A stretch of DNA of 64,000 nucleotides, taken from assembly GCA_030650095.1 (NCBI GenBank), contig JAUSEE010000007.1, forward strand, positions 16,812 to 80,811, in the 5' to 3' direction. This DNA is from Candidatus Buchananbacteria bacterium (lineage in GTDB: Bacteria > Patescibacteriota > Patescibacteriia > 2-01-FULL-39-33). The notes under the pieces are model-generated. The model ran no database searches, was not told where the DNA came from, and saw only the letters and a program-made list of their open reading frames with translations. Shown piece by piece: positions 16,381 to 53,513 of this stretch. Made by a program: the position numbers and the translations under genes. Each line of letters starts with the position of its first letter. Positions within the stretch are counted from its first letter, which is position 1.

Positions 16381-16389
16381 AAATGAAAA

Positions 16390-19302
16390 CTATGGTTTGG
16401 GCACGCAAGTTCCAAAACAACAACCCGTACTGCCATCGCCTAAAACAGTTGAATGATCTTTGGTAATAATCCAACTACCGCCTAAATCTGTCGTGGTGGC
16501 ACTCTCATCATAATATAAAACCTTGCAAAAATTATCTGTCGAATCGCATTCATTGGCGTTTTCTATTTCCGGACAATTTAAATAACCATAAGAAGCCGGA
16601 TTAGTGGGCAAAACCGGAGCGCAACCAGCCGATAAGGCGTACCCGTTATAACTGCAGATCTGTCCTGATTTAGCAGCTTCTTTGGGGCCAGCGCTAGGCA
16701 GAAAACAATTCTGGCTGATTGATTGGAGGCCAGAACCGGCCAGCGGGCCATATTTGGTGGCTAAATCAAAATCATTATGGTTTAAGCTAGCCTTGGTAAA
16801 ATCAGCCCAGCCGTCGAAATTTTGATCCAAATCATTTTTTAAAGACCAATAGCCGACCGGCACAGCTGATTCGCTGATGGTTTGTAAAACCAAATATCTG
16901 ACTGATTTTTCCTTTGGAGTAGAACCGTAATTCCAACCTGGTTTTAGGGTAGAACTGCGCATCAATCTATCAAAGCTAAAATCAACTTTAGTTTTCGGGC
17001 TGTTAATTTGATCATCACCTACCGGTTCATCGGTTTTAAGCAGCGGAGCCTTTTTGTCTATCTCGCTGGAAATATTAAATGACCAGGAAAAATTATCACC
17101 GAAACCACTAAGGCCAAAAGCCGGAGTTGATGAACCGTAGCTTACCACTCTTGACCCAGGAGCAGAACAATCGCCTGGCTGGCAGATTATGCCTAAATTC
17201 AAATCATACTTACTGCGTCCGGATTTGCCTTCGCCACTGCCTGATTGACCTTGGGCAATGCCTATGGTTTTATTATTGTATTGATAAGTGTCAAAACTGC
17301 CGTTGAAAGCATTAAAACTCATATCCACCAGGCCGTTCATTTGCGGAGATAAAGGATAAAATACTTGCTTGCCATCAACAGTCTTAAGACAGCGGCCATG
17401 GCCATCACTTATTCCGCCCCAAGCCGAACATTTGGCGTCACTGGCGTTCATCAGGGTAGCCGAAGAAATCTCTACCTCATAAGGCTGGGCATTGCCAGAA
17501 ACCGGCCAACAGAACATAGTATCGCCGCAGCTATTTGTGCCACATTCATCGGGAGCCACCAGTTCTATCGTTTTATATTGATTGGATATTTCCACTGTAT
17601 AGCCGGTAATTGCAACACCAGCTCTTTTGACAATGATGCTATCTTCTATAACCGACGGATTAACCGCTTCATTGAAATTAATTTGAATGATTGTATTCCT
17701 ATAAGCGTCAGGCAGACCATTGGGCTCGCGATTCGGCTGCTGATCTTGGCCATTAGTTTTAGTAATAACGAAGTTGCTACTGGTGCCGATGAAATTTAGA
17801 TTATATTTAGCGGTAGCGGCGCCAGTCTGCTTGGTTTGAACGCAGTTAGCCCCGCAAGTTTCAAATAGATTGGTATCACTTATTAATTTATCATCAAAAC
17901 CGGCTGGATTAGGAATATCGGTGCCAAAAGTGTAGGTTTTAATAGTAGTGCTATTATCTTTAAGTTCCAATTTATCTCCATCTTGGTGAGCCACGACATT
18001 AAAAGTCCAAGAATTGCCACGGGCCACGACACCATCAGCATTAAAGACCAAGCCGTACGGACCTATATTCAAAATGGCTCCAGGCGGATCAAATTGGCCG
18101 CTGTTAAATGTGCCCATAGTTCCTGGCCAAGTGGTTTTTATTTCTCCAGTGCCGGAATCAACCCTAACTGTAACCAAGCCGGTAGCTGTACCGCCATAGT
18201 TGCCAGTAATGATTCCGGAAATAGTAGTGCCGCCCCCCTTAACAGCAGTACTATCGAAGGACGACAATGTTTCTAATCTAATATTAGCCAGAGTTAGAGC
18301 CACGGAAAATTGAGTGGCTGTCGGGCCGGAGGCCACGCCATAATCATCCAGCAAATCATCTGGGTAAGGATAAACACCAGCTAGATTAATAATTTCGGGC
18401 GGATCCAAATCTAATTCTCCATTAGTGGTAAATTGCCAAGCGTACTCTTCATTAAATAAGTTATCAAAGACTGATTTACCAGGCTCAGCCACGGTTTCTA
18501 TGCCTGACTTTAGATTGACCTTAAACCTCCGGTTGGCAAAATCTTCTAAGCCCAGATATTTATTTGGTATGATAGTAAATGTTCTGTCGTCATTACTGTC
18601 CACTATGCTGCCGGAAAAGGCGCCAACAGAAAATTCTTCGCCTTCTTCCTGACAGATGCCGTTATTATCAACTTGGCAGATTTCTATATTGGTCATGGCC
18701 GTATCAGTGCCGTTACAAACAGCCGCTCCACAGATAGTCTGGGGATTAATTTTTTCCTTGAAAGTCACAGCAATAGCGGTATTAATCGGCACATCAACTT
18801 GCCCCGGAGACGGATAAACGCTTTCAATCGGTCCTACGCCAATGCCCCAACGGCCCAAATCGCCAGGACCGCCGCCACCATGGCCATAGTCGCCACCGCC
18901 ACCAAAACCAGCCAAGATACCAATAATAAAAGCGGTTATAATATAGGATGATAAAATAATAATTATGCCGATAACCGTGTTAATCAGTATTTTTTTGGCT
19001 TTCTCAATTTTAGCCGGGTCACCGCCGGAAGTCATCCAAACAAATCCGCCATAAAGCACCATAATAACCGCAAAGATGCCTAAAAATCCCAAGATAAGTT
19101 GGATAATCCGAACAATAGCTACTCTTAAATCATTTTGAGGCAAGCCGATAGCCGCCGCATCAGCCAAGCCAAAACGGTTTGGAGCTTGAGCCAAGCCTAC
19201 ACTGGGCAAAATTAAGAGTAAAAAAAACGCCAAGAAAGATACCAAGAGTACTCTTTTGGCGATTTTCGACTTCTGCATGGATGAAAGCCGTGGACTAAAC
19301 AT
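16390..19302 (-). CDS. Large (970 aa) secreted, membrane-anchored surface protein with the same VirB2/TrbC-pilin-like N-terminal module, a Gly-rich linker, multiple beta-rich extracellular domains and a Cys-rich C-terminus
   Basis: N-terminus: ...SVGLAQ APNRFGL..AAAIGLPQNDLR..LILGFLGIFAVIMVLYGGFVWMTSGGDPAKIEKAKK..VIGIIIILSSY. Gly-rich linker GGGGDYGHGGGGPGD. The gene ends 9 nt upstream of the 3310-aa gene. Confidence 0.75.
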   Translation of the reverse strand: MFSPRLSSMQKSKIAKRVLLVSFLAFFLLLILPSVGLAQAPNRFGLADAAAIGLPQNDLRVAIVRIIQLILGFLGIFAVIMVLYGGFVWMTSGGDPAKIEKAKKILINTVIGIIIILSSYIITAFIIGILAGFGGGGDYGHGGGGPGDLGRWGIGVGPIESVYPSPGQVDVPINTAIAVTFKEKINPQTICGAAVCNGTDTAMTNIEICQVDNNGICQEEGEEFSVGAFSGSIVDSNDDRTFTIIPNKYLGLEDFANRRFKVNLKSGIETVAEPGKSVFDNLFNEEYAWQFTTNGELDLDPPEIINLAGVYPYPDDLLDDYGVASGPTATQFSVALTLANIRLETLSSFDSTAVKGGGTTISGIITGNYGGTATGLVTVRVDSGTGEIKTTWPGTMGTFNSGQFDPPGAILNIGPYGLVFNADGVVARGNSWTFNVVAHQDGDKLELKDNSTTIKTYTFGTDIPNPAGFDDKLISDTNLFETCGANCVQTKQTGAATAKYNLNFIGTSSNFVITKTNGQDQQPNREPNGLPDAYRNTIIQINFNEAVNPSVIEDSIIVKRAGVAITGYTVEISNQYKTIELVAPDECGTNSCGDTMFCWPVSGNAQPYEVEISSATLMNASDAKCSAWGGISDGHGRCLKTVDGKQVFYPLSPQMNGLVDMSFNAFNGSFDTYQYNNKTIGIAQGQSGSGEGKSGRSKYDLNLGIICQPGDCSAPGSRVVSYGSSTPAFGLSGFGDNFSWSFNISSEIDKKAPLLKTDEPVGDDQINSPKTKVDFSFDRLMRSSTLKPGWNYGSTPKEKSVRYLVLQTISESAVPVGYWSLKNDLDQNFDGWADFTKASLNHNDFDLATKYGPLAGSGLQSISQNCFLPSAGPKEAAKSGQICSYNGYALSAGCAPVLPTNPASYGYLNCPEIENANECDSTDNFCKVLYYDESATTTDLGGSWIITKDHSTVLGDGSTGCCFGTCVPKP

Positions 19303-19340
19303 AAAGCATGTGATTTATTTAGTTTGTCTTAATTTTATTT

Positions 19341-19799
19341 TTATCTTTTCAATTCTTCTTTGACAATTTTAGAAACCATTTGGCCGTCAGCTTGATTTTT
19401 CGTTTGAGCCATGACCGCTCCCATTACCTTCCCGAAAGCAGACGGGCCAGCAGTTCCAATATCTTTGATAACTTGCAAAACAACAGCCCTCACTTGATCA
19501 TCAGGCATTTGCTCGGGCAAATATTTTTCCAAAATAACTATTTCCTTCTCTTCTTTATCAGCTAGATCCAAGCGTTTAGCTTGGCTGTACGACAGATATG
19601 AATCCTTTCTTTTCTTGATTTCTGATTTTATGACCGCTGTAATATCAGCATCAGGCAAACGTTCCCCTTTGGGCAACTTTTTTTCGATCTCTTTATTGGT
19701 TAAGGCCGCCTTTAGCATCCTTAAAACCGACACGGTCGTGTCTTGCTTATTTTTAAAAGCGGTTAAAAAATCTTGATTTATCTTTTCAGCTAAAGACAT
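19341..19799 (-). CDS. yqeY: GatB/YqeY domain protein
   Basis: 152-aa protein beginning MSLAEKINQDFLTAFKNKQ with KLPKGE and a VVLQVIKD tail, typical of the YqeY family. Confidence 0.75.
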   Translation of the reverse strand: MSLAEKINQDFLTAFKNKQDTTVSVLRMLKAALTNKEIEKKLPKGERLPDADITAVIKSEIKKRKDSYLSYSQAKRLDLADKEEKEIVILEKYLPEQMPDDQVRAVVLQVIKDIGTAGPSAFGKVMGAVMAQTKNQADGQMVSKIVKEELKR

Positions 19800-19899
19800 A
19801 TTAATTAACTAAATTAAACTTTAGAAAGTTATAAAGTCAAAAAATAATCTTTAACTTTATAAACTTTATAAATTTTACCAACTTCCCTAGGCAGACTTT

Positions 19900-20142
19900 T
19901 TATCTTCTATTGTCTCTCTCTTTTTCATCAACTAATTTGCCTATTTTCTTTAAATATTCTCTTTTATCAGATATTTCCTTTCTTCTGGCTGCAGCCGATC
20001 GAACGGCTGTTTTGCTTTTCTTAGGCTCATAATATCTAATTTTACGGGATTGAATCAATCTTCCGCTTTGTTGTATTTTCTTGCTGAATCTTCTAACTAA
20101 AGCTTCAAATGTTTCTCCTTTTTTTCTTTTAACTTCCGCCAC
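19900..20142 (-). CDS. rpsU: 30S ribosomal protein S21
   Basis: 80-aa basic protein, MAEVKRKKGETFEALVRRFSKK..GRL..RKIRYYEPKKSK, matching the bS21 pattern. Confidence 0.8.
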   Translation of the reverse strand: MAEVKRKKGETFEALVRRFSKKIQQSGRLIQSRKIRYYEPKKSKTAVRSAAARRKEISDKREYLKKIGKLVDEKERDNRR

Positions 20143-20199
20143 TGTGATTTCACCTCGCTTTCTATGGGTTATATATTAAAACTATAACTTTATTATTTA

Positions 20200-21699
20200 T
20201 TATTTTTCTAAATCTAACTTTTCAATTTCCTCAATATCCTCCTTCTGATCTTCTAAACTTTCAATTTCACTGGAAATATTGCCGGACATTTCAATTTTAT
20301 TTTCACTTTCTTCATTTTGAGTCAGATCAATGACAGCGCCTTCATTATACTTTTCCAATCTCTTTTTCAACTCACGCTCAATTTTATTGAAATCAATGAC
20401 TTCCTGAACGCCGCCCTGCATATCCCTTAACATGATAGTGCCGTCACCGACTTCCTTTTGGCCGATAATCAAAGTGAATTTGACTCTCATTTTATTGGCT
20501 ATTTCCAATTGTTTTTTCAAACTATCCTTATGAAAGGCTTGGGAAACGGTAAAGCTGCCGTTTTTCCTAAGATTTTCATACATCACCATGGCTTTCTTCT
20601 TGGCCGCATCACCCAATTGAGCCACAAACACATCAATTCTTTCTTCTGGAACTTCAATATTTTTTTCTCTCATTTTTGCCACAATCCTATCCATACCCAT
20701 AGCTAAACCACAAGCGGGAGTTTCTTCACGGCCACCCAGAATTTTTATCAAACCGTCGTACCTGCCGCCTCCGCCTAAGGCATTTTTTCCTTCCACATCA
20801 TCGATAGCCCAATATTCAAAAATTGTTCTGGTGTAATAATCAAGGCCCCTGACAATATAAGGATTTAAAACATAGGGTAAATCCAATTCATCCAAATAAC
20901 CGATTACCTTCATAAAATGATTTTTGCAAGCATCATCCAAGTAATCCAATATTTGCGGGGAATCTTCCCGAAGACTGCGGCAACCTTCTTCCTTGCAATC
21001 CAAAAGGCGCAAAGGATTCCTGCCCATCTTGTTTTTACAATTTTCACATAAAAGCTTGGATTTTGTCTTATAATATTTAACTAGGGCTTTCTTGTATTCT
21101 TCGCGGCATTCCTTGCAACCGATACTATTAACCTGGATAACCGATTCAATGCCTAAATCGTTTAAAGAATTCCAACCCATTAATATAAGCTGGGCATCCA
21201 AGGCCGGATTATCTTCGCCGATAGCTTCAAAACCAAATTGAAAGAATTGCCTATACCGGCCGGATTGGGGCTTTTCATGCCTAAAAAGCGGACCTTCATA
21301 AAAAAATTTAACCGGCTGGGTATGGTTGAGCAAGCCGTGTTGGATATAAGCCCTGACAACCGAGGCAGTGCCTTCCGGCCTCAAAACTAAACTATCACCG
21401 CCTTGATCCACAAAAGAAAACATTTCTTTCTCGACAATATCCGTTTGCGAACCGACTCCTCTGACAAATAATTCCGAATATTCCAAAATAGGCGTATCGA
21501 TTCTTTCATAGTCATAATCTTTGGAAATCTGTTTGGCCACTTCCCTTACTCTTTCCCAATATTTTTGATCTTGAGGGAGTATATCGCGCATACCGGTAAC
21601 GGTGGATAAATCCCTTTTGGTTTTTTTTGGTTTTTTGATTTCTTTAACAACTTTTTTCTCCATAGGCTTTCTTATTCCAGCTATTTTTTTTCTGGTCAT
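20200..21699 (-). CDS. hisS: Histidyl-tRNA synthetase, with an acidic C-terminal extension
   Basis: Class II HisRS motifs LRPEGTASVVRAY and GGGRYDGL, plus an anticodon-binding domain. Confidence 0.9.
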   Translation of the reverse strand: MTRKKIAGIRKPMEKKVVKEIKKPKKTKRDLSTVTGMRDILPQDQKYWERVREVAKQISKDYDYERIDTPILEYSELFVRGVGSQTDIVEKEMFSFVDQGGDSLVLRPEGTASVVRAYIQHGLLNHTQPVKFFYEGPLFRHEKPQSGRYRQFFQFGFEAIGEDNPALDAQLILMGWNSLNDLGIESVIQVNSIGCKECREEYKKALVKYYKTKSKLLCENCKNKMGRNPLRLLDCKEEGCRSLREDSPQILDYLDDACKNHFMKVIGYLDELDLPYVLNPYIVRGLDYYTRTIFEYWAIDDVEGKNALGGGGRYDGLIKILGGREETPACGLAMGMDRIVAKMREKNIEVPEERIDVFVAQLGDAAKKKAMVMYENLRKNGSFTVSQAFHKDSLKKQLEIANKMRVKFTLIIGQKEVGDGTIMLRDMQGGVQEVIDFNKIERELKKRLEKYNEGAVIDLTQNEESENKIEMSGNISSEIESLEDQKEDIEEIEKLDLEK

Positions 21700-21721
21700 A
21701 GTATATTTTGGTGTTTTAAGT

Positions 21722-22354
21722 TTAAAATCCGTATTGGGGAGTGGTAAATAGTGTTAACTTATTAAAAGGCCAGCCCCTAAGCCAAGTTCGACCAATTATA
21801 AAATCAGATCTCACCGGACCAAAAGTTCTAGAATCCTGGCTTTGATCACGATTATCACCCATTAAATAATATTCGTTATCCTTCAATTTTAGTTCCCCGT
21901 AACCGCTGACCGGCAACCTAGTTTCCACGCCGCTGGCCAAATAGTCCTCTTTTAAAACATTGGACTGACCGCCGACCGGGGTTATAAAAATTGAGCCATT
22001 ATCAATCTTGACTGTTTCGCCTGGCAAACCGATAACCCTTTTGATAAAAAACTGCCTCGGATCTTTGGGATATTTAAAAACTATTATATCCCCTCTTTTA
22101 GGCTCATTGAAACGGTAGCTTATTTCATCAATAATCAAATATTCATGATCGTGGAAATTAGGCTCCATGGAAGCGCCCTTAACATAGAAAGGCTGAATTA
22201 AAAAATATCTAATCGGCAACACGATAACCAGGGAAATTAAAGTTATTTTGGCCATTTCCCAAATAAAATCCAATAACCTCTTGAATTTGCCGGGACTGGG
22301 CGCATTAAATGAGTATTGGCCATCACCAGAATTGTAATCAGAAGAATTATCCAC
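21722..22354 (-). CDS. lepB: Signal peptidase I
   Basis: Motifs GASMEPNF (catalytic Ser), FIKRVIGLPGE and YLMGDNRDQSQDSR. Confidence 0.85.
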   Translation of the reverse strand: MDNSSDYNSGDGQYSFNAPSPGKFKRLLDFIWEMAKITLISLVIVLPIRYFLIQPFYVKGASMEPNFHDHEYLIIDEISYRFNEPKRGDIIVFKYPKDPRQFFIKRVIGLPGETVKIDNGSIFITPVGGQSNVLKEDYLASGVETRLPVSGYGELKLKDNEYYLMGDNRDQSQDSRTFGPVRSDFIIGRTWLRGWPFNKLTLFTTPQYGF

Positions 22355-22434
22355 TTATTTTATAATTTATTATATCTACTCATGATTATAACACTTAAAA
22401 TGATATTTTACAAGCTTTGTTATAACATAAAACC

Positions 22435-22463
22435 TTGTCAAATATCAACTAATAAGCTACAAT
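22435..22463 (+). promoter_or_regulatory. Sigma70-like promoter for the LCP-family gene
   Basis: TTGTCA, a 17-nt spacer and TACAAT, about 50 nt upstream of the start codon. Confidence 0.5.
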
Positions 22464-22515
22464 GTAAAATGTGTTTATCATCTTATCAACAAGAGCATTA
22501 AATTTATAAAAAATA

Positions 22516-24075
22516 ATGAGAAAAGTCAAGGTCAACCTATTATCAGACGATAATGAAGAAAACATAAAAACAGCTGAAACGGAAAAAATTGCGCTAGCAA
22601 ACAACCGCTACCGACCCAAAAGAAAATATAACCTCAAAAAAATAATTGCCAGTGTTATTATAGTAATAGTAATATGCTTGGCAGTTTTTTCGTCTTCCAT
22701 AGTTTTTTCTGATGAAAATCTAATTAAAAATCTGGCTAAGCTTAATTTGTTGCAGCAAATGGGAAGATTAATAGGAGCTGGCAGTAAGGATTTGATAGGC
22801 GAAGATGAAGACCGAATAAGTGTCCTCTTAATTGGCATGGGCGGAAGCGGCCATGAAGGCGGCACGCTGGCTGACACTATAATCCTGGGATCATTCAAAC
22901 CCAGCACCAATCAAGTGGCTATGCTATCGATCCCCCGTGATTTAAGCGTCAAAACAGCCAACTATGATTGGACTAAAATAAACGCCATCAACGCTTACGC
23001 GGAAAAAAAAGAAGAGGGCAGCGGCGGACGTGAAATGGCTAGTGTTTTAAACGATCTGGTTGATACTAATATAAAATATTATGTCACTGTTGATTTTTCC
23101 GGTTTTGAAAGATTAATTGACGAGTTCGGCGGAGTTGATGTTTATGTGGAAAGAGATTTAATTGATATGGAATATCCTATCAGAGGCAAGGAAGATATCT
23201 TCCCTATAGAAAACCGTTATGAAACTCTTAATATAAAGAAAGGCCAACAACATATGGATGGGGCCACGGCTTTAAAATACGCCAGATCAAGGCATGCTTT
23301 GGGTATTGAAGGATCTGATTTTGCCAGATCAAAAAGGCAACAAAACATTTTATCAGCTCTAAAAGACAAAGTCTTCCATTTTGATACGATTTTAAATCCT
23401 AAAAAATTAAACAGCCTTTTAACCGCTTACAACGAACATATCTCCACTAATTTAGAAATATGGCAACTGCTTAAGCTGGCTCAAATGGCCAAAGATATTG
23501 ATACCAGTAAAATAATAAACCACACCCTATCAGATGCCAGTGGCGGCTTGGTCCATTCGCAAATCATAAACGGAGCCTATGTCCTTATACCCAATGACGG
23601 CAATTTTGAAGCTATAAAAAAATTATGGCAGAATATTTTCTATACAACCGGAACAGAAATAAAAACCGTCGGTAGTACAACTGTTTATCAATCTACTAAT
23701 CAATTGGCTAGCACTAGCGCCACCACTACTGATAATCAAGTGGAAACTAAAAAGACCGATAACACCTTGCCCAAAACACTAACAGCTGATTATAAAACAG
23801 AAGGAGCCACAATTGAAATTAGAAATGGCACTTGGATAACAGGCTATGCCAGCAAACAACAATCCGAATTAGAAACCAAGGGCTTTGATGTCACTAGTGC
23901 CGGCAATGCTGATAATCATGATTATGCCAAAACTTTAATTTATGATTTTTCCAAGGGCAAAAACCCGGGCACAACCTTGGAATTGGCGAAAATCTACGGA
24001 ACAAGCGTAATTACCAGTATTCCTGTTTCTTTAAGTTCCAGCGCCAACTTCCTGATAATTTTAGGGCAAGATTAA
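22516..24075 (+). CDS. LytR-CpsA-Psr (LCP) family cell-envelope polymer transferase with a C-terminal LytR_C-like domain
   Basis: N-terminal TM helix. LCP core RISVLLIGMGGSGHEGGTLADTIILGSF...MLSIPRDL. Confidence 0.85.
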   Translation: MRKVKVNLLSDDNEENIKTAETEKIALANNRYRPKRKYNLKKIIASVIIVIVICLAVFSSSIVFSDENLIKNLAKLNLLQQMGRLIGAGSKDLIGEDEDRISVLLIGMGGSGHEGGTLADTIILGSFKPSTNQVAMLSIPRDLSVKTANYDWTKINAINAYAEKKEEGSGGREMASVLNDLVDTNIKYYVTVDFSGFERLIDEFGGVDVYVERDLIDMEYPIRGKEDIFPIENRYETLNIKKGQQHMDGATALKYARSRHALGIEGSDFARSKRQQNILSALKDKVFHFDTILNPKKLNSLLTAYNEHISTNLEIWQLLKLAQMAKDIDTSKIINHTLSDASGGLVHSQIINGAYVLIPNDGNFEAIKKLWQNIFYTTGTEIKTVGSTTVYQSTNQLASTSATTTDNQVETKKTDNTLPKTLTADYKTEGATIEIRNGTWITGYASKQQSELETKGFDVTSAGNADNHDYAKTLIYDFSKGKNPGTTLELAKIYGTSVITSIPVSLSSSANFLIILGQD

Positions 24076-24095
24076 AAAATTAAGAGCCAAAAAAA

Positions 24096-24119
24096 CCGCT
24101 GACAGACAGCGGTTTTTTG
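24096..24119 (+). terminator. Rho-independent terminator after the LCP gene
   Basis: CCGCTG acaga CAGCGG followed by TTTTTT. Confidence 0.8.
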
Positions 24120-24141
24120 ATATTTACAATGAAGTGACACC

Positions 24142-24169
24142 TTGACAAAACAGCCATAAAAAGTATACT
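24142..24169 (+). promoter_or_regulatory. Sigma70-like promoter of the DUF1559 gene
   Basis: TTGACA, a 16-nt spacer and TATACT. An AAGGA ribosome-binding site lies 9 nt before the ATG at 24343. Confidence 0.5.
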
Positions 24170-24342
24170 TATGTCAGCTGTAAAGCTAACGCACATTGAT
24201 AGTCTAAAGATAGCTAAAAAAACAAAGGAGTTTTTACCTATGTATAAGCAAACATAAATAGCGGCATTTAACAAGACAGTACTAAGTTTTTTTATTTCAG
24301 AAGAACAACGATCAGAAAAACGACAAAAGGAAACATAAGAAA

Positions 24343-25326
24343 ATGAAAAAGAGAAACGGTTTTACATTGATAGAACTTTTAGTAGTTATAGCCATTATCG
24401 GCATTTTGGCAGCCATACTTTTGCCAGCGCTGGCGCGAGCCAGAGAGGCGGCACGTCGATCCAGTTGCGCCAACAATCTGAAACAGTTCGGGCTTATTTT
24501 CAAAATGTATGCCAATGAATCTGGTGGTAAGTATCCACCGATGATGGGGTACACATCAAGTGACAGGCAGAAACCGGATCGAGTAGTCGGCTACAGTTCG
24601 ACACCCTGCGGTTTCGTCAACCCGCGATTGGCTCCACCCGCGCCTCCAGCCACAGCCGGCGGAGATGCGGAATTCATCTTCGACGGTAAAGCCGTTTATC
24701 CAGAATACATGACAGATCCAGCTATTTTGGTTTGCCCGTCCGATTCCGACGGTTCTGAGCGGAAAACTGCGGGAGAATTTAATCTGAACGGTGATACGAA
24801 TCTGTCGATTGACCCGTGCAATTTCAGCGCGGTGTCATATATGTATCTCGGCTGGGTGTTGTCCGGCAAGGCGGGCGATGATTATTTAATGAAAGGCGCG
24901 GATGCCAACAATCCAGCCATAGCCAATCTCGTAAGTCCACTTCAGGCCGTCGGCACGTATTTGGATCCCGGCTTTATCGTGAGAATTTTGACCCTGCTAA
25001 CGACAGCGTCTATGACGAATAATCCAGCGGAGTATGATCAGGATCTTAAGTTCGCCAATGCCTTTGCCGAGCAAAAGACGCTCTATCGAGTCCGAGAAGG
25101 CATCGAGCGGTTCTTCATCACTGACATCAATAATCCCGCTGGCAGCGCGCAAGCGCAATCAGTCATACCGTATATGTTTGATTTGTCGAGTTCTCTCGGC
25201 AGCGAATTCAACCATATTCCTGGTGGCGGCAACATATTGTACATGGACGGGCATGTAAGCTTTAATAGGTTCCCGGGAGAATTTCCGGTCACTCGAGCCT
25301 TCGCTCTGATGACATCCATGTTTTAA
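24343..25326 (+). CDS. DUF1559 / H-X9-DG family protein with a prepilin-type N-terminal cleavage/methylation domain (type IV pilin-like)
   Basis: [58 protein letters not shown] is the canonical DUF1559 N-terminus. C-terminal [17 protein letters not shown] is the H-X9-DG motif. The gene is markedly GC- and GC-codon-richer than its neighbours. Confidence 0.8.
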
Positions 25327-25340
25327 TCTAGAAAATAACC

Positions 25341-25375
25341 AGCCATTGACCTAATAAGTCAATGGCTATTTTATT
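25341..25375 (+). terminator. Rho-independent terminator (bidirectional position between the DUF1559 gene and tspO)
   Basis: AGCCATTGAC ctaataa GTCAATGGCT followed by ATTTTATTT. Confidence 0.7.
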
Positions 25376-25401
25376 TGGTAAAAAATCTAAAAAATAAATA
25401 A

Positions 25402-25872
25402 CTAGTTCAATATCAAAATATAAAAATTCAATAGGCTGGCGAAACTCACCCAAAGGATATAGGGCAATAAAAGCAGGCTGGATAATTTACTGATTCTCCA
25501 AAAATAAATCATTAAAAAAATAATCGCCAGCCATAACAATATAATAGTACAAAAAGCTAACAAAGGATTATGCCAGCCAAAAAAAGCCAGCGACCAAAAG
25601 GAATTGATAAATAAATGTATAACAAAAACTACAACAGCCATTTTAGATTTTTTATTATTCGCCGACCAAACCAGATACAAAGAAATCGCCATTAAAATAA
25701 AGAGGGTTGTCCAAACCGGGGCAAAAAGCCAAGCTGGCGGGTTGAAACTAGGCTTATTAAGAGTGCTGTACCAAGTTGGAACTTCGGAGGCGGTAAAAAT
25801 TGAGCCGGCCAAACCGGCCAAGAAAGTAAAGGCCAGCGACAGAATGAGTTTGGAATATTTTTTTAACAACAT
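25402..25872 (-). CDS. tspO: TspO/MBR family tryptophan-rich sensory protein
   Basis: Motif WYSTLNKPSFNPPAWLFAPVWTTLFILMAISLYLVW in a 5-TM, 156-aa protein. Confidence 0.75.
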   Translation of the reverse strand: MLLKKYSKLILSLAFTFLAGLAGSIFTASEVPTWYSTLNKPSFNPPAWLFAPVWTTLFILMAISLYLVWSANNKKSKMAVVVFVIHLFINSFWSLAFFGWHNPLLAFCTIILLWLAIIFLMIYFWRISKLSSLLLLPYILWVSFASLLNFYILILN

Positions 25873-25878
25873 AAATAT

Positions 25879-26676
25879 TTATTTTTTCCAAAATTTAAAT
25901 CTGGAAAAAAATCTCTTCACTGGATTCAAAGCTGGTTTAACTGGCTCTGACTCTGGTTTTTTAGAAACCCTAGCCAAATGCTCTTCGCTTTCACGCTTAT
26001 TTATTTCTATGATTTTAAAACGAATCAGCTCGGGCAACAGATGCAAATGGCCTTCCTGGATATGGCCGGCTATAACGTCAGGACCAACATAGTTTCCTTG
26101 AGCGTCAATTAGTTTTTCTTTCTGATAAACTAACTTGATAATTTCATAAATAGTTTGAGCTCCGCTTAAATCCAATCCGGCTAGAGCTCTGAATTCATCG
26201 GTTTTTTTGTAATCATAAATCAGTTTAGCCACTGTTTCCCTTAACTTGTGACGCAAAGTAATATTGGTCCAGTCTTCTTTTTGATAATTTTTCAAATCCT
26301 GATAAGTCAATTTATAAATCAAATTAATGACTGTTTCGGCTGGCAGTTCTTGGCCTAATTGATTTTTAATCGTCCCCTCTCTGGTAATCATTTCAATAAG
26401 TTCATGATAGCTCCTGGCTTGGCTGAAATCAATAATCTCTCCTTCTTGATTTAACATATCAGACAGCTCTAATTTTGGCGGTTTGGAATAATCGGGCTTG
26501 GCCGGCTCCTTATTTAAGGCTGGCTCGCTTAAATCTTCCTGTTCTTCTTCGTCATATTTATCAAATTCATCATCTACGCTGTCAGCTTCCTGGTCTTCTA
26601 AAATTTCTTCAACTATCTCTGGCTCCCTCTCGACAAATCGATCTCCATTCTGATGGTTTAAAAATCTCTCATTCAT
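25879..26676 (-). CDS. Hypothetical protein with an acidic N-terminus
   Basis: ORF only; no motif recognised. Confidence 0.4.
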   Translation of the reverse strand: MNERFLNHQNGDRFVEREPEIVEEILEDQEADSVDDEFDKYDEEEQEDLSEPALNKEPAKPDYSKPPKLELSDMLNQEGEIIDFSQARSYHELIEMITREGTIKNQLGQELPAETVINLIYKLTYQDLKNYQKEDWTNITLRHKLRETVAKLIYDYKKTDEFRALAGLDLSGAQTIYEIIKLVYQKEKLIDAQGNYVGPDVIAGHIQEGHLHLLPELIRFKIIEINKRESEEHLARVSKKPESEPVKPALNPVKRFFSRFKFWKK

Positions 26677-26706
26677 AAGACATTACAGATAATTATTACT
26701 TATATT

Positions 26707-27324
26707 TTATTGGAAAAAAATTGGTATCTCCAATTGATCCTCATTTTCCGGCAAGCCGGAAGGATTGTCTTTTCTTAAAATTAATACACCTTTGGCAGTT
26801 TGAGGCTGAGAAAACTGCAAAGTTAAAGAAAAAGGCACAAAATCAGTAGTCATCCAATCGCTTTGAGCTTGGGCAATGCCCGTGCCTAGTAAATTACTGT
26901 TATCATCATAGACATTAACCGGAAAACTGGCCTCAAAAAACCAATAACCCCTGGCGACACCAGAAATAATTACTGGATTGTTTATTTTTTGATTGGGTAG
27001 TGGATTATCAACCCTGATTAAATCAGCCTTAGCCAGCCCATTGCCGATATCTTCTACAAAATTTTGGCCGTTAAACTGACACTGCCTGGGATAACTTTCA
27101 ACAATGGGCTGGCCCAGGGCAGCGCATTCTTCAAAATTAGTAACTGTTTTTTCTACACCGCAACCGCTAATAGGAGCCGGATTTTTAGGATTGCCATGCT
27201 TAACCCAAGTGCCATCTTGGCAAAGCCAATTGTCCTCTTGACCGCTAAGACCAAAACGCGTCACTACAATAACGGCCACCAGAACTAAAATAATAAAAGA
27301 TAAGATTAAGATGTTTTGTTTCAT
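26707..27324 (-). CDS. Secreted/anchored hypothetical protein, possibly with a Gmad2-type Ig-like C-terminal domain
   Basis: N-terminal TM/signal sequence. The C-terminal beta-rich segment GYWFFEASFPVNVYDDNSNLLG...VLILRKDNPSGLP resembles the Gmad2 immunoglobulin-like domain; this is a weak call. Confidence 0.4.
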   Translation of the reverse strand: MKQNILILSFIILVLVAVIVVTRFGLSGQEDNWLCQDGTWVKHGNPKNPAPISGCGVEKTVTNFEECAALGQPIVESYPRQCQFNGQNFVEDIGNGLAKADLIRVDNPLPNQKINNPVIISGVARGYWFFEASFPVNVYDDNSNLLGTGIAQAQSDWMTTDFVPFSLTLQFSQPQTAKGVLILRKDNPSGLPENEDQLEIPIFFQ

Positions 27325-27329
27325 ATATA

Positions 27330-27851
27330 TTAAGTAAATTTTTCTTTAATTTTTTTGATTTTGGGAGCAATCACGAAAGAGCAATAAGCTTGATCGGGAT
27401 TCTTCTTAAAATAAAAATGGTGGTATTCTTCGGCCGAAAAAAATTTATCCAGCTTTTTTACTTCGGTGACAATCGGCTTGGAATACTCCGATTGGGCTTG
27501 TGAAATAAAATCATCAATTATCTTTTTCTGTTCATCTGTTTCATAAAAAATAACCGAGCGATACTGAGTGCCAACATCCTGGCCTTGTTTATTCAAAGAG
27601 GTGGGATCGTGCATGGTAAAGAATATTTTTAATATCTTTTCCAGAGGCAGAATCTGGCTGTCATAAACCAGCTTCAAAACCTCGGCCTGGCCGGTTTCTC
27701 CGCTGCAAACTTCTTCATAAGTCGGATTTTCCTTCTGGCCGCCGCTATAGCCGGGCAGAGTTTCAAGCACTCCTTTTATTTCTATAAAAACCGCTTCGGT
27801 GCACCAAAAACAGCCTCCGCCCAAAATAATTTCTTGCTTATTTTTTTCCAT
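27330..27851 (-). CDS. msrA: Peptide methionine-S-sulfoxide reductase MsrA
   Basis: Active-site motif [12 protein letters not shown]. Confidence 0.9.
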
Positions 27852-28206
27852 CTTTGTTGAATTTCAAAGAAATTGAGTTAACACAGTAACGCTTGTTTTT
27901 ATCGGTAAAACCTTCGCCTAAGAAAACATGGCCTAAATGAGCTCCGCAATTAACACATTGTATTTCGGTGCGCAGGCCGTCGGCATCCGGTATCTTTTTT
28001 ATAGCCCCCGAAATAGCATCATCAAAACTCGGCCAGCCGCATTTGGCATCAAATTTATCATCGGATTTAAAAAGTTCAGCGCCGCAACGCTTGCAAATGT
28101 AAACACCCTTGTCAAAGTTACGTTCATATTCTCCGCTAAAAGGCGTTTCAGTGCCCTTGTCTAATATAACAGCTTCTTCCTCTGGGGTAAGTTTATTATA
28201 TTCCAT
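27838..28206 (-). CDS. msrB: Peptide methionine-R-sulfoxide reductase MsrB
   Basis: Motifs CGWPSF and [17 protein letters not shown], with Zn CxxC pairs. The gene overlaps the msrA start by 14 nt. Confidence 0.9.
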
Positions 28207-28235
28207 ATGTTAAAACTTATACAAACATTTTAAAA

Positions 28236-28898
28236 TTAGATTATATTCAAGCCTAATTTCCGATGCTGGCGCAGATGAAGTTTATAATCAAAATAGGTCT
28301 TTATTAAAATTATAATTACGCGCGATAAACTATTTAATCCCAAAAAACTAAAGGCGAAAGCGCCTCCCATAACTGTCAGATGCATGACAATAATCCGGCT
28401 ATAAGGCGCATGCATCATTTCCAGAGGCGATACCTGGCGGAATTCTTCATTCTTGATGTAATTTTGCCAAAAAGAAACGCCATGACTGACCATAAAAAGA
28501 CCAAAGATAATCAGAAGAGGCGCAATGGTAATCGCAGTACTGGGGAAAAAACCATTTGGTCCGAATAAAGCATAAATAAACAAGCCGTGGCCTAAAGTGA
28601 AACCGCCAAAATGAACAATAAAAAATGGAATTATAAACAATTTAAACAAATTTCCACTTTGGCCAGACCCAGGACTAAACATAAAGCCGCCGCTGGCTTT
28701 AGCAATTTTTAATATTGCATAAAAGCCAATAACAATATTTTCTAACCAATACGCCAACAAGATCTGATAAAGGCTCCAATCAAAGAAAGCCACGCCAAAA
28801 ATTGGAACAAGGTTTACAATAAGCAGATAAGCAGCCGGCCAGGAAATAGTACTTAATTGATTGTATGTATTTTTAAAAAAAGTCATGAACTGAAGCAT
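28236..28898 (-). CDS. Polytopic membrane protein of unknown function
   Basis: About 6 predicted TM helices; no motif recognised. Confidence 0.45.
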   Translation of the reverse strand: MLQFMTFFKNTYNQLSTISWPAAYLLIVNLVPIFGVAFFDWSLYQILLAYWLENIVIGFYAILKIAKASGGFMFSPGSGQSGNLFKLFIIPFFIVHFGGFTLGHGLFIYALFGPNGFFPSTAITIAPLLIIFGLFMVSHGVSFWQNYIKNEEFRQVSPLEMMHAPYSRIIVMHLTVMGGAFAFSFLGLNSLSRVIIILIKTYFDYKLHLRQHRKLGLNII

Positions 28899-28910
28899 CT
28901 AGATTTTAAT

Positions 28911-29372
28911 TTATTTTGATTGATTTTTCTGGACCGGTTTATAAGTATACCTAAACTTATGAAATTCATCTTCATATTGCCGACTGCTAGTTTTTATTGC
29001 ACCTAAATTTTCTGCTGCTCGAATAGATTTTTTATTATCAATATCAATCGTCAAGGTAATAAACGGCAAACTAAGCTTGTCCATTAGCAGTTGCTTGAAT
29101 TTAGCCGCTAGCCCCTGGCCTCTGTATTTGGGATCTACCACAGTGTGAGTGATGTTCTTTTCATCTTCCGTATCATAAACTCCGACTATGCCTAACTTTT
29201 CGCCCTTGGTACCAATGACAGTAAAATATTGCGGATTTAGGCAATTATCCTGTCCTAAAGCAATCCAGCCATTTTCTCCTTCCATTTCTTGAAAAAATTC
29301 CATGTCAAATTCTTCAAGACTTTTTATTTCGGCCGGTTCTTGTTCATGATTTAATGATTCTGGTGATTTCAT
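28911..29372 (-). CDS. GNAT family N-acetyltransferase
   Basis: Motif A-like YRGQGLAAKF within VVDPKYRGQGLA. Confidence 0.65.
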   Translation of the reverse strand: MKSPESLNHEQEPAEIKSLEEFDMEFFQEMEGENGWIALGQDNCLNPQYFTVIGTKGEKLGIVGVYDTEDEKNITHTVVDPKYRGQGLAAKFKQLLMDKLSLPFITLTIDIDNKKSIRAAENLGAIKTSSRQYEDEFHKFRYTYKPVQKNQSK

Positions 29373-30289
29373 AATTTTTCTATTTCTTGCAAAACCTCAG
29401 CCGGACTGCCTAAGAAATAACGCTTGCCATCTTTGGGATTGATATACCAAGCCGCCTTGTTTTGTTCTACCTGTATTAAAATCAGACCCTTGTTCAAATC
29501 AGAAAAAACAGGGTTAATCGGCAACTTGCCAGTTCCCAGGGGATTATAACGGCTAAGTATTTCCGCTTTGTCAGAGAAAGTGTCACCATCAGTGTCTTTT
29601 TTATTTATATCCGTACCTAAAGCCGTTTCAATAGCATTGGACAAGCCGTCTTCATCCGTATCTTCTCCTCCAAAATTATACTCGGCTAAAGGAACCTTGG
29701 AGATATCGGCCGCTGAAACTCCCGTGCTGAAATTGATTAAAAAAGAATAAATATTGGCGTCAGCCGAACCTAACTTAACTTTAAAATTTTGGTATTTATT
29801 AATCAGCTGGGTTTGCTCTGCGGTAGCTTTCTGCAAATCAGCCGTTTTTTGATCCAACACAACCTGATTGTCGGCCAAGGATTTTTCCAGCTCGGAAATC
29901 TGCCTTTGCCTTTCAATAGATTGCTTTTCGGAATCGCTTAAACTTTGAGTGGTTATTTTAAGGCTTTGATTGGCCGCCGTAATATTGTTAACTAGTTTTA
30001 CATTTTCATTGTAAACAAACACCACATAAGCCGTCATGCTCAAAAAAACAACTGATAAAATTATATAAAAAACCCACCTCTGCCAATGCCTTTTTTTGAT
30101 TTCATAGTGAATTTGCCTGTCTTTATAATCCATCGAGCTTAACTCGGTGGAATTGAAATCAGGCTGAGGCGGTGAGGTGAAAGGAGACGGGTTTGAGGGA
30201 TCCATAAGATTATGATTATTTTTATAGTCTGTTTTAATTATACCAAAATAGTTAATCCATTGTAAGATGGCAAAGCCTAATCGGCCCAA
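29369..30289 (-). CDS. Membrane-anchored coiled-coil protein with a C-terminal TSP3-like Asp-rich repeat (DTDEDGLSN..DTDGDTFSD)
   Basis: TM helix WVFYIILSVVFLSMTAYVVFVY, heptad-rich middle region and C-terminal Asp motifs like those of the 5647..6396 protein. Confidence 0.5.
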   Translation of the reverse strand: MGRLGFAILQWINYFGIIKTDYKNNHNLMDPSNPSPFTSPPQPDFNSTELSSMDYKDRQIHYEIKKRHWQRWVFYIILSVVFLSMTAYVVFVYNENVKLVNNITAANQSLKITTQSLSDSEKQSIERQRQISELEKSLADNQVVLDQKTADLQKATAEQTQLINKYQNFKVKLGSADANIYSFLINFSTGVSAADISKVPLAEYNFGGEDTDEDGLSNAIETALGTDINKKDTDGDTFSDKAEILSRYNPLGTGKLPINPVFSDLNKGLILIQVEQNKAAWYINPKDGKRYFLGSPAEVLQEIEKL

Positions 30290-30290
30290 A

Positions 30291-30322
30291 CAAAAAAACC
30301 TGACAACATAAACATTATCAGG
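30291..30322 (-). terminator. Rho-independent terminator after the kinase-like gene
   Basis: On the minus strand: CCTGATAATGTTTATGTTGTCAGG followed by TTTTTTT. Confidence 0.7.
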
Positions 30323-30436
30323 ATTAAAAATTAGAATAAATTTTTAGCCACGGTTTGCTAGTTTTAAGATAGGCATTGCCTCCTGGCAAATTTGATTTAT
30401 TTAATTATACCACTATTTGAAATAAAAAAATAATCT

Positions 30437-31816: not shown

Positions 31817-31951
31817 AAATGATTATTTATGATTATTATTTTTCACTTTACCACCTTATTTGAAAGATAGCAATAATTTATTGATTAAATAAAATGTCAT
31901 AATAATACCTTTTTATTGCCAAGAAGGCTTATTTACGATACTATAATTATT

Positions 31952-33962: not shown

Positions 33963-33977
33963 TAAAAGTGAGAAAAG

Positions 33978-34064
33978 TGGTGCCCGAAAAGGGATTTGAA
34001 CCCTTATGACTCTAAAGTCAACGGATTTTAAGTCCGTCGTGTCTGCCAATTCCACCATTGGGGC
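33978..34064 (-). tRNA. tRNA-Leu (anticodon UAA), CCA encoded
   Basis: The reverse complement folds as GCCCCAA/TGGTGGAATTGG...GGACT-TAAAA-TCC with a long variable arm, the T-arm GGGTTCAAATCCC and a CCA end. It is similar to E. coli tRNA-Leu(UAA). There is one acceptor mismatch, C5/C68. Confidence 0.75.
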
Positions 34065-34078
34065 ACTGGTTAGCGATT

Positions 34079-53503: not shown

Positions 53504-53513
53504 CGAATAATTA

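What the first reader, a model, noticed from the sequence alone, without database searches (positions are those of the whole stretch)
24120..25380. GC-rich single-gene insertion encoding a DUF1559 / H-X9-DG prepilin-like protein typical of Planctomycetes and Verrucomicrobia
The 327-aa protein starts with a textbook prepilin N-terminal cleavage/methylation motif followed by the DUF1559 signature: [51 protein letters not shown]...Y..GGKYPP. It ends with the H-X9-DG motif ([17 protein letters not shown]). This family is expanded to hundreds of copies per genome in Planctomycetota, Verrucomicrobiota and Lentisphaerota and is rare elsewhere. The gene is conspicuously GC-richer than its surroundings and uses GC-rich codons (CTG, GCG, CGG). 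Stretches such as ccgcgattggctccacccgcgcctccagccacagccggcggagatgcgg are well above 55 % GC, while the flanks look like about 38 %. The gene has its own promoter (24142..24169) and a long 5' UTR, and is bracketed by terminators at 24096..24119 and 25341..25375. This is a strong candidate for recent horizontal acquisition by a low-GC host that may process it with its own type IV pilus machinery.
Basis: partly seen in the sequence, partly recalled or inferred. Interest (0 to 1): 0.7.

Follow-up and report, generated by a model that had tools for sequence, protein, structure and literature searches.

The report
Foreign pilin-like gene in a CPR bacterium
A tiny-genome Candidatus Buchananbacteria bacterium carries one intact, GC-rich gene for a pilin-like surface protein (DUF1559 family) whose closest relatives are all in the unrelated phylum Hydrogenedentota; it is a clean case of single-gene horizontal transfer, and of modest novelty.

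Summary
ORF 24343..25326 (+) encodes a 327-aa protein with a prepilin cleavage/methylation N-terminus, the DUF1559 start and a C-terminal H-x-DG motif. The spacing is H-X10-DG, not X9, in the whole subfamily. The gene is 49.7% GC (GC3 0.53), against 40.1 ± 2.9% for 47 other window ORFs (z about 3.3). Its codon usage is the third most atypical of 48 ORFs.

The contig is a Candidatus Buchananbacteria (CPR/Patescibacteria) chromosome. Six syntenic relatives lack the gene. In the two closest, LytR and the next conserved gene are separated only by about 130-155 bp holding a shared terminator. An independent Logan assembly reproduces 21 kb around the gene with no mismatch, so a chimera is very unlikely.

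All 120 best homologs are only 51-59% identical. Every named one is Hydrogenedentes, except one 'Nitrospiraceae' bin that is probably mislabelled. Some sit on about 52% GC Hydrogenedentota contigs whose copies match this gene's composition. The donor was therefore most likely Hydrogenedentota, not Planctomycetota or Verrucomicrobiota.

The protein keeps all 83 family-invariant residues and has a promoter-like site, an RBS and a terminator, so it is probably functional. Processing by a host prepilin peptidase is inferred, not shown. The adjacent TspO gene is a separate accessory gene at the same variable spot.

Verdict: a real horizontal transfer and a new member of a known kind. Interest is low to moderate.

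The parts
24090..24118 (.). Bidirectional intrinsic terminator after LytR (AAAAAACCGCTG / CAGCGGTTTTTT). It is the ancestral terminator and marks the left edge of the extra DNA.
   Evidence: A perfect 12-nt inverted repeat with a 5-nt loop. It folds at -16 kcal/mol with z -6.2 (+ strand) and -5.2 (- strand). L002 and L003 carry a similar A-run/hairpin/T-run directly after LytR.
24142..24169 (+). Sigma-70-like promoter, TTGACA-16-TATACT.
   Evidence: It matches 11 of 12 positions, the best of 21 sites in 22-27 kb. This is a consensus match only; function was not shown.
24176..24342 (+). Inferred 5' UTR of about 165 nt, AT-rich (the whole 24076-24342 intergenic region is 32% GC). It contains a 5-codon mini-ORF (24241-24258, MYKQT*) behind an AAAGGAG, and the RBS-like AAAGGAAA at 24326-24333.
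   Evidence: Read from the sequence. There is no Rfam family and no unusual fold (z -0.13). There is no nucleotide homology to the upstream regions of homologs.
24343..25326 (+). DUF1559 / H-x-DG prepilin-like protein gene, 327 aa. This is the horizontally acquired unit.
   Evidence: Nucleotide homology to Hydrogenedentota copies starts at the ATG and ends near 25316.
24343..24360 (+). Class III (prepilin) leader peptide MKKRNG. Cleavage is predicted after G6, leaving F+1 and E+5.
   Evidence: N_methyl/TIGR02532 hits. G6, F7 and E11 are invariant in 61 sequences.
24367..24519 (+). Long N-terminal alpha-1 helix (residues 9-59), the pilin stalk.
   Evidence: AF2 model with pLDDT 90.6, helix H9-59. 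This is the only part that matches solved pilins by sequence.
25213..25251 (+). H291-X10-D302-G303 motif ([13 protein letters not shown]), followed by H304.
   Evidence: for the spacing. H291, D302, G303 and H304 are invariant. TIGR04294 scores 20.2 bits.
25341..25367 (.). Bidirectional terminator shared by the DUF1559 gene (+) and TspO (-).
   Evidence: Found on both strands. It folds at -16.3 kcal/mol on + and -20 kcal/mol on -, with z -4.9 and -5.3.
25402..25872 (-). TspO/MBR gene, a second accessory gene in the same variable spot. It has host-like composition and a separate origin, and is not part of the transferred unit.
   Evidence: Pfam TspO_MBR. GC is 0.367. It is absent from L002-L007. 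The best hits are 50-63% identical, and the named ones are Patescibacteria/Parcubacteria or archaeal (Woesearchaeota, Diapherotrites and one unclassified 'archaeon' MAG).

Best explanation
A Candidatus Buchananbacteria (CPR/Patescibacteria) chromosome acquired the coding sequence of one DUF1559/H-x-DG type-IV-pilin-like protein. The donor belonged to, or was close to, the phylum Hydrogenedentota and probably had about 50-52% GC.

The gene landed in a variable intergenic spot between the convergent genes LytR/CpsA/Psr and a conserved 265-aa gene, just past their shared terminator. It is now expressed as a monocistronic unit from AT-rich, host-like signals: a promoter-like site, an RBS and a terminator.

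The following mechanism is inferred, not shown:
- The precursor is inserted in the membrane by its class III signal peptide.
- The host prepilin peptidase (PilD) cleaves it after Gly6, and Phe+1 is N-methylated.
- The long alpha-1 helix keeps it in the membrane or lets it enter the host's type IV pilus as a minor or tip subunit.
- This displays a roughly 270-residue disulfide-containing globular domain on the cell surface. That domain probably binds something, but its ligand is unknown.
For: **Foreign origin (shown)**
- GC is 0.497 and GC3 0.534, against 0.401 ± 0.029 and 0.396 ± 0.045 for 47 other window ORFs (z 3.3 and 3.1).
- Codon-usage z is -3.1.

**Host identity and empty site (shown)**
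- Synteny (giant protein, YqeY, S21, HisRS, signal peptidase, LytR, then hyp265, Gmad2 and onward) is shared with three Buchananbacteria-type MAGs, and the block up to LytR with three more.
- None of the six has a DUF1559 hit.
- LytR and hyp265 are about 130 bp apart in L002 and about 155 bp apart in L003. The window has 1803 bp there.

**Donor lineage (shown at the level of named hits)**
- The protein is a singleton cluster. The 120 best hits are 51-59% identical.
- Eleven of the 12 hits named with an organism are Hydrogenedentes/-ales.
- The contig carrying P0004 (52.5% GC) has an EF-G whose named best hits are Hydrogenedentes/-ota at 68-75% identity.
- Copies on the 52% GC contigs have GC 0.52 and GC3 0.57-0.60, close to the window gene.
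- Homologs occur as tandem paralogs in those genomes.

**Only the CDS is recognisably foreign**
- Nucleotide homology runs from 24343 to about 25316.

**Not an assembly artefact**
- The Logan contig from SRR13727527 is identical over window 14343-35326.

**Probably functional**
- The ORF is intact and retains all 83 invariant columns of a 61-sequence alignment, including C42, C131, H291, D302, G303 and H304.
- Its mean identity to the other members is 57%, against a family median of 59%.
- The AF2 model is confident: pLDDT 90.6, pTM 0.86.
- A promoter-like site and two terminators are present.

**Pilin nature**
- N_methyl and TIGR02532 hit the N-terminus.

**Host capacity (literature, not tested here)**
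- Type IV pilus genes including PilD are widespread in CPR, and pilins and an MdbA-like disulfide oxidoreductase are CPR-enriched families (PMC6744442).
Against: - No close donor is sampled. The best identity is 59%, and bootstrap NJ gives no supported sister: about 49% of replicates place the protein with a clade containing Hydrogenedentes proteins.
- Donor taxonomy rests on source names and on one marker gene of one contig.
- No type IV pilus machinery gene and no other prepilin gene lies in the 64-kb window or in the relatives' loci. Processing and assembly in this host are therefore unverified.
- DUF1559 proteins have no experimentally known function.
- The promoter is only a consensus match, and there is no expression evidence.
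- No mobile-element gene, flanking direct repeat, plasmid hit or phage hit explains how the gene arrived.
Confidence: 0.85

Rival explanations
1. Assembly or binning chimera: the 1-kb GC-rich segment belongs to another organism and was spliced into the CPR contig by the assembler.
For: The composition jumps sharply at the gene borders. The protein is a singleton seen on one NCBI contig and one Logan contig.
Against: - Both sides of the gene are syntenic with Buchananbacteria genomes on the same contig.
- The Logan assembly reproduces 20,984 bases across both junctions with 0 mismatches.
- The junctions lie in AT-rich, host-like intergenic DNA with a host-type terminator.
- The gene's GC (0.50) is below that of most sampled homologs (0.52-0.62).
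- No repeat at the borders could mislead an assembler.
Confidence: 0.03
2. Ancestral gene: the DUF1559 gene was already present in the common ancestor of these Buchananbacteria and was lost repeatedly, so there was no recent gain.
For: The best hit is only 59% identical, so no recent donor is visible. CPR genomes lose genes easily.
Against: - This needs at least two or three independent precise losses (L002, L003, L006, and also L004, L005 and L007) against one gain.
- Composition and codon usage have not equilibrated to the host.
- No CPR-named protein is among the 120 best hits.
- The family is multi-copy in the other lineage.
Confidence: 0.04
3. The donor was a PVC bacterium (Planctomycetota, Verrucomicrobiota or Lentisphaerota), and not Hydrogenedentota.
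For: The literature describes DUF1559 as PVC-restricted and hugely expanded there (PMC10632474, PMC4807772).
Against: - Eleven of the 12 top hits named with an organism are Hydrogenedentes. The one 'Nitrospiraceae' bin also has a Hydrogenedentes-like EF-G, P0296.
- The contig of near neighbour P0004 is Hydrogenedentota by EF-G.
- The H-X10-DG spacing is shared by all 60 aligned subfamily members.
Confidence: 0.08
4. Transient, non-functional passenger: the gene is really foreign but is not expressed or processed in this host, and will decay.
For: - No partner genes are nearby.
- It is a single copy, with no close CPR relatives that would show retention.
- Codon usage is poorly adapted.
- CPR cells appear to lack a Gram-negative envelope (PMC6744442), so the native context of the family may be missing.
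Against: - The ORF is intact with every family-invariant residue kept and a normal branch length.
- Host-like promoter, RBS and terminator signals surround it.
- Streamlined CPR genomes seldom keep useless DNA; this last point is inference.
Confidence: 0.25

Closest known systems
DUF1559 (Pfam PF07596, 'SBP_bac_10') / H-X9-DG prepilin-type proteins (NCBIfam TIGR04294) of Planctomycetota and other PVC bacteria
   Same: It has the same architecture: a prepilin leader with G-1/F+1/E+5, the 'LLPALxxAREAARRxxCxNNLKQ' continuation, and a C-terminal H...PGGxN...DG motif. It scores above both curated cut-offs. As with the whole family, its function is unknown.
   Different: - Only the first 47 of 268 Pfam model positions match.
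- The motif spacing is X10, not X9.
- It belongs to a subfamily whose named members are Hydrogenedentota, not PVC.
- The host is a CPR bacterium with one copy, rather than tens to hundreds.
Type II secretion major pseudopilin GspG/EpsG and type IVa pilins
   Different: - It is two to three times larger, and about 200 residues have no solved counterpart.
- TIGR01710 (GspG) scores 36 bits against a cut-off of 88.85, so it is not a GspG ortholog.
- No secretion or pilus operon is nearby.
Documented single-gene horizontal transfers into Patescibacteria (e.g. lysR from Omnitrophota; PMC12455944)
   Same: It is an individually transferred gene from another phylum, sitting in a streamlined CPR genome without mobile-element genes.
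   Different: The cargo is a surface pilin-like protein, and the apparent donor phylum (Hydrogenedentota) is not in that paper's donor table. The donor here is unsampled, with at most 59% identity.

Membership tests
Type IV pilin-like proteins (prepilin N-terminal cleavage/methylation domain, PF07963 / TIGR02532) | A short basic leader ending in Gly, then F/M at +1 and Glu at +5, followed by a hydrophobic stretch of about 20 residues. | tested here: met
   The sequence reads MKKRNG|[23 protein letters not shown]07963 scores 39.7 bits (cut-off 21.2) and TIGR02532 35.8 bits (cut-off 16.3).
Type IV pilin-like proteins (prepilin N-terminal cleavage/methylation domain, PF07963 / TIGR02532) | Pilin fold: a long alpha-1 helix packed on a beta-sheet head. 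| tested here: met
Type IV pilin-like proteins (prepilin N-terminal cleavage/methylation domain, PF07963 / TIGR02532) | Cleavage and N-methylation by a prepilin peptidase, and assembly by PilB/PilC-type machinery in the same cell. | not testable with these tools
   No such genes are in the window or the related loci, and the rest of the MAG could not be read. The literature says PilD and type IV pilus genes are widespread in CPR (PMC6744442).
DUF1559 (PF07596) | A score above the Pfam gathering threshold. | tested here: met
   It scores 37 bits against 23.3, but covers only residues 32-78, which are model positions 2-47 of 268. All 120 best homologs carry the precomputed PF07596 tag.
H-X9-DG prepilin-processing-associated proteins (TIGR04294) | A C-terminal His, nine residues, then Asp-Gly. 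| tested here: inconclusive
   The model scores 20.2 bits against a cut-off of 19, over residues 293-307. The literal spacing is H291-X10-D302-G303, here and in all 60 aligned homologs. This is a subfamily variant.
T2SS major pseudopilin GspG (TIGR01710) | An equivalog-level score. | tested here: not met
   It scores 36 bits against a cut-off of 88.85, matching only residues 6-65.
Horizontally acquired gene | Composition and codon usage deviate from the resident genes. | tested here: met
   GC z is 3.3, GC3 z 3.1 and codon-usage z -3.1 among 48 ORFs.
Horizontally acquired gene | Absent from the syntenic site in related genomes. | tested here: met
   L002 and L003 have an empty site of about 130-155 bp. 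L006 has an unrelated ORF there. No DUF1559 hit was found in six loci.
Horizontally acquired gene | Nested phylogenetically within another lineage. | tested here: inconclusive
   All named close hits are Hydrogenedentes, and the NJ tree places the protein inside that radiation. No sister group reaches 50% bootstrap, and no outgroup or ML tree was available.
Horizontally acquired gene | Physical continuity with the host chromosome: coverage and read pairs. | not testable with these tools
   Reads were not available. As indirect support, a second assembly is identical over 20,984 bases.

The most novel reading that the evidence does not exclude
The gene was taken from the physical host or partner of this episymbiotic CPR bacterium, a Hydrogenedentota cell. 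It is displayed on the CPR's own type IV pilus as a host-type pilin-like subunit, so it mediates or mimics partner-specific surface contact. The transfer would then point to an otherwise unknown Buchananbacteria-Hydrogenedentota association, and would give the first functional handle on the DUF1559 family.
Probability: 0.1. Interest if true: 0.6.

Novelty: new member of a known kind. Interest (0 to 1): 0.3.

Why it matters
DUF1559/H-x-DG proteins are among the largest paralog families in Planctomycetes (68 copies in P. limnophila, two of them essential) and have no known function. The papers read here (PMC10632474, PMC4807772) describe them as PVC-restricted.

This case adds two points. A large subfamily lives in Hydrogenedentota. 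One copy has also been captured and apparently kept intact by a genome-reduced CPR bacterium that cannot afford much ballast.

A single copy in a minimal genome is a simpler setting for asking what such a protein does, and whether a foreign pilin can be fed into a monoderm-type CPR pilus. The donor lineage may also hint at who this CPR organism lives with.

Otherwise this is an ordinary, well-delimited example of cross-phylum single-gene transfer, which is already documented for Patescibacteria.

Tried and rejected
- **5'-end swap.** I suspected the first 81 nt (33% GC, GC3 0.37) were a native pilin 5' end recombined onto a foreign body. I rejected this. The dip is not significant (Fisher p = 0.11). 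Homologs show the same kind of dip from amino-acid composition, for example L023 at 0.44 against 0.58. Nucleotide homology to donor-lineage copies starts at the ATG itself.
- **Regulatory RNA in the long 5' UTR.** No Rfam family matched, and the fold is no better than shuffles, z -0.13.
- **Conserved upstream element shared with homologs.** Only chance 9-10-mers were found.
- **Mobile-element footprints.** No convincing flanking direct repeats and no transposase or integrase were found. tblastn against the plasmid and phage collections gave no match.
- **Organism names through the listing of cluster members.** Two calls on top hits and on marker genes of their contigs returned no names.
- **Co-occurrence of the donor in the same sample.** The best Logan-only hits, P0005 and P0017, come from other runs, which is uninformative.
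- **Fold searches.** Foldseek against PDB found nothing significant. The afdb50 library was unavailable.
- **Native pilin genes.** None were found in the window or in six related loci.
Full report
**1. What is in the sequence**

- Pfam finds the prokaryotic N-terminal methylation motif at residues 1-27 (3e-10). It finds DUF1559 (PF07596, 'SBP_bac_10') at residues 32-78 with 37 bits against a cut-off of 23.3. That match covers only the first 47 of the model's 268 positions.
- NCBIfam finds the prepilin GFxxxE domain (TIGR02532, 4e-9). It finds the H-X9-DG model just above threshold (TIGR04294, 20.2 bits against 19) at residues 293-307. GspG, PilA and ComG equivalogs match only through the N-terminal helix and stay far below their cut-offs.
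- Counting residues shows the motif is H291-X10-D302-G303. The same X10 spacing occurs in all 60 aligned homologs. This is a subfamily trait, not an error in this gene.

**2. Composition**

- The gene is 49.7% GC, with GC1 0.51, GC2 0.45 and GC3 0.53.
- The other 47 long ORFs of the window average 40.1% GC (sd 2.9) and GC3 0.396 (sd 0.045). This gives z = 3.3 and 3.1.
- A leave-one-out likelihood of synonymous codon choice gives z = -3.1, the third most atypical of 48 ORFs. Ala GCG, Arg CGA and Leu CTC/CTG are over-used. TTA, GCT, ACT/ACC and GTT are under-used.
- The rise is confined to the coding sequence. The 267-bp upstream spacer is 32% GC and the downstream spacer 24%.
The gene as a whole is about 50% GC.

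**3. Signals**

- The site TTGACA-16-TATACT at 24142..24169 matches 11 of 12 positions and is the best promoter-like site in 22-27 kb. It would give a leader of about 165 nt.
- That leader matches no Rfam family and folds no better than shuffled sequence, z -0.13.
- AAAGGAAA lies 10-17 nt before the ATG.
24090..24118 is a perfect 12-nt inverted repeat at -16 kcal/mol, z -6.2. 25341..25367 folds at -16.3 kcal/mol, z -4.9. Both have A-runs and T-runs on either side, so they can terminate in both directions.

**4. Who the host is, and the empty site**

- The exact protein is recorded once in NCBI, as a MAG protein of Candidatus Buchananbacteria on an 83-kb contig. It is recorded once more in a Logan assembly of run SRR13727527.
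- The window is typical of a CPR genome. It holds FtsZ/FtsA, HisRS, signal peptidase, LytR, MsrA/B, Der, Pth, DprA, TopA, ParAB, SmpB with tmRNA, IF3, and giant surface proteins.
- A scan of species-representative genomes with the LytR neighbour returned six syntenic loci:

| Locus | LytR identity | Label or note |
|---|---|---|
| L002 | 77% | HisRS 90% identical; labelled 'Gammaproteobacteria', evidently mislabelled |
| L003 | 74% | Buchananbacteria CG10 |
| L006 | 63% | Buchananbacteria RIFCSPLOWO2 |
| L004, L005, L007 | about 50% | more distant relatives |

- All six share the block giant protein-970-aa protein-YqeY-S21-HisRS-signal peptidase-LytR. The three closest continue with hyp265 and Gmad2.
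- None has a tblastn hit to the DUF1559 protein.
- In L002 and L003 the stop codons of the convergent LytR and hyp265 genes are only about 130 and 155 bp apart. That space holds a single A-run/hairpin/T-run terminator resembling the window's 24090..24118 hairpin.
- L006 has an unrelated 235-aa membrane ORF at the spot.
- The window has 1803 bp there: the DUF1559 unit and, on the other strand, TspO (25402..25872).
- TspO has host-like composition (GC 0.367) and starts 6 nt after the stop of hyp265. Its best hits (50-63% identical) are named Patescibacteria/Parcubacteria or archaeal MAGs, mostly DPANN (Woesearchaeota, Diapherotrites).
- The spot is therefore a variable intergenic site that has received at least two unrelated genes. 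The DUF1559 gene is one single-gene event among them.

**5. Where the gene came from**

- More than 8000 database proteins match. The best 120 are full-length, 51-59% identical and all tagged N_methyl + DUF1559.
- Eleven of the twelve that carry an organism name are Candidatus Hydrogenedentes, Hydrogenedentales or Hydrogenedens. One is a 'Nitrospiraceae' MAG, and none is a CPR.
- The 'Nitrospiraceae' label is doubtful. An EF-G labelled Nitrospiraceae (P0296) sits among Hydrogenedentes EF-Gs.
- The contexts of five homologs are large-genome, non-CPR contigs of 52-65% GC, with two or three DUF1559 paralogs side by side.
- For the 52.5% GC contig that carries P0004, one of the nearer neighbours in the tree, the EF-G's named best hits (68-75% identity) are all Hydrogenedentes/-ota apart from that same odd bin and one unclassified 'bacterium'.
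- Copies on the two roughly 52% GC contigs have GC 0.52 and GC3 0.57-0.60, close to the window gene's 0.50 and 0.53. Copies on 58-65% GC contigs have GC3 0.76-0.84.
- A donor of about 50-52% GC would thus explain the composition with little amelioration. A higher-GC donor would imply substantial amelioration. The data cannot tell these apart.
- In a 61-sequence alignment the window protein retains all 83 invariant columns. Its mean identity to the others (57%) is close to the family median (59%). Other members are equally isolated.
- The 59% ceiling therefore reflects a sparsely sampled, star-like paralog radiation and not a long residence or decay.
- Bootstrapped NJ gives no supported sister. 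About half of the replicates join it to a clade containing the Hydrogenedentes proteins P0008 and P0011.
- Nucleotide similarity to the homologs begins at the ATG and ends about 10 nt before the stop. Only the coding sequence is recognisably foreign.

**6. Artefact check**

- The Logan contig, built by a different pipeline, is identical to window 14343..35326 over 20,984 bases.
- Host-syntenic genes lie on both sides of the island.
- No repeats sit at the borders.
- A chimera would need a 1-kb foreign piece spliced precisely between a host terminator and a second terminator in two assemblies. I rate this at about 3%. Read-level coverage could not be checked.

**7. What the protein is likely to do**

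Shown:
- There is a class III signal peptide (MKKRNG|F, with E at +5).
- The confident AlphaFold model (pLDDT 90.6, pTM 0.86) has a 50-residue alpha-1 helix and a mixed alpha/beta head.
- By sequence, only the helix matches solved structures. Foldseek finds nothing significant. About 200 residues of the head therefore have no solved counterpart.
- No solute-binding-protein fold was seen, despite the Pfam short name.
- Four cysteines are invariant or nearly so: C42, C89, C131 and C159. The H291/D302/G303/H304 cluster is invariant.

Inferred:
- In the CPR host the precursor would be cut by PilD. It would then stay membrane-anchored or enter the type IV pilus as a minor subunit, exposing the head domain.
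- The literature supports that type IV pilus systems including PilD, and an MdbA-like disulfide oxidoreductase, are widespread or enriched in CPR (PMC6744442).
- No such gene lies in this window or in the related loci, and I could not read the rest of the MAG.

The DUF1559 family has no experimentally established function. It is known mainly as the largest paralog family of Planctomycetes, with 68 copies in P. limnophila, two of them essential. It is described as PVC-restricted (PMC10632474, PMC4807772).

**8. Comparison and novelty**

- The protein is a member of the prepilin-type and DUF1559 families by their curated thresholds. It is a variant (X10) of the H-X9-DG motif family. It is not a GspG ortholog.
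- As an event, it is a cross-phylum single-gene transfer into a Patescibacteria genome. This class is already documented, though reported as uncommon compared with transfers within Patescibacteria (PMC12455944).
- What is new is the cargo and the lineage pair: a Hydrogenedentota-type DUF1559 pilin-like protein in a Buchananbacterium. The evidence also shows a large DUF1559 subfamily living outside the PVC group.
- I classify it as a new member of a known kind, with interest about 0.3.
- The most novel reading not excluded is that the gene came from the organism this episymbiont lives on and now serves partner contact. I give that about 10%.

**9. Confidence**

| Claim | Probability |
|---|---|
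| Horizontal acquisition of a real, contiguous gene | about 0.9 |
| Hydrogenedentota-like donor | about 0.8 |
| Gene currently functional | about 0.7 |
| PilD-processed surface or pilus-associated protein | about 0.5 |

Noticed in passing
window 25402-25872 (-): TspO/MBR gene immediately downstream of hyp265 (6-nt gap). It is absent from all six syntenic relatives. Its best hits are only 50-63% identical and are named Patescibacteria or archaeal MAGs, mostly DPANN. This is a second, independent accessory gene in the same intergenic spot.
   Followed up: yes
L006 11572-12279 (-): A related Buchananbacteria genome carries a different, unrelated 235-aa membrane ORF at the same LytR/hyp265 spot. 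The site therefore behaves as a small hotspot for gene gain.
   Followed up: partly
window 53430-54789: Right after tRNA-Asp (53430-53504) lie two membrane-protein ORFs: DUF2975 at 53546-54010 (-), and a 181-aa hydrophobic protein at 54244-54789 (+) with GC 0.49, GC3 0.52 and no Pfam hit. Their codon usage is as atypical as, or more atypical than, that of the DUF1559 gene. This may be a second small foreign island.
   Followed up: partly
window 6448-19302 (-): Two consecutive giant surface proteins (3310 aa and 970 aa) each start with a T4SS_pilin (PF18895, VirB2-like) domain, followed by LamG/TIG/DUF4215 or Big_5 domains. They are conserved in all six related loci.
   Followed up: no
window 24241-24258 (+): A five-codon mini-ORF (ATG TAT AAG CAA ACA TAA) sits 9 nt behind a strong AAAGGAG inside the putative 5' UTR. 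Its tail, AAGCAAACATAA, recurs as AAGGAAACATAA just before the real start codon. This could be chance or a leader peptide.
   Followed up: no
window 50871-51766 (+): A tmRNA gene (51375-51766, 113.7 bits) follows directly after smpB (50871-51374). ORF 51480..51782 (-) in the ORF list is therefore spurious.
   Followed up: partly
L002 (CAYIBK010000002.1), and the proteins P0062 and P0296: There are probable taxonomic mislabels in public records. L002 is titled 'uncultured Gammaproteobacteria' but is gene-for-gene syntenic with Buchananbacteria. MAG proteins labelled 'Nitrospiraceae bacterium' (a DUF1559 and an EF-G) both group with Hydrogenedentes sequences.
   Followed up: partly
alignment A1 (window protein residues 291-304): All 61 aligned members of this subfamily have H-X10-DG-H, not the H-X9-DG that names the family. 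They also have four cysteines that are invariant or nearly so (C42, C89, C131, C159).
   Followed up: yes
L019 10001-13981 and L020 4751-6789: In the Hydrogenedentota-type contigs the homologs occur as two or three tandem or neighbouring paralogs. Each has a long upstream spacer of 170-690 bp.
   Followed up: no
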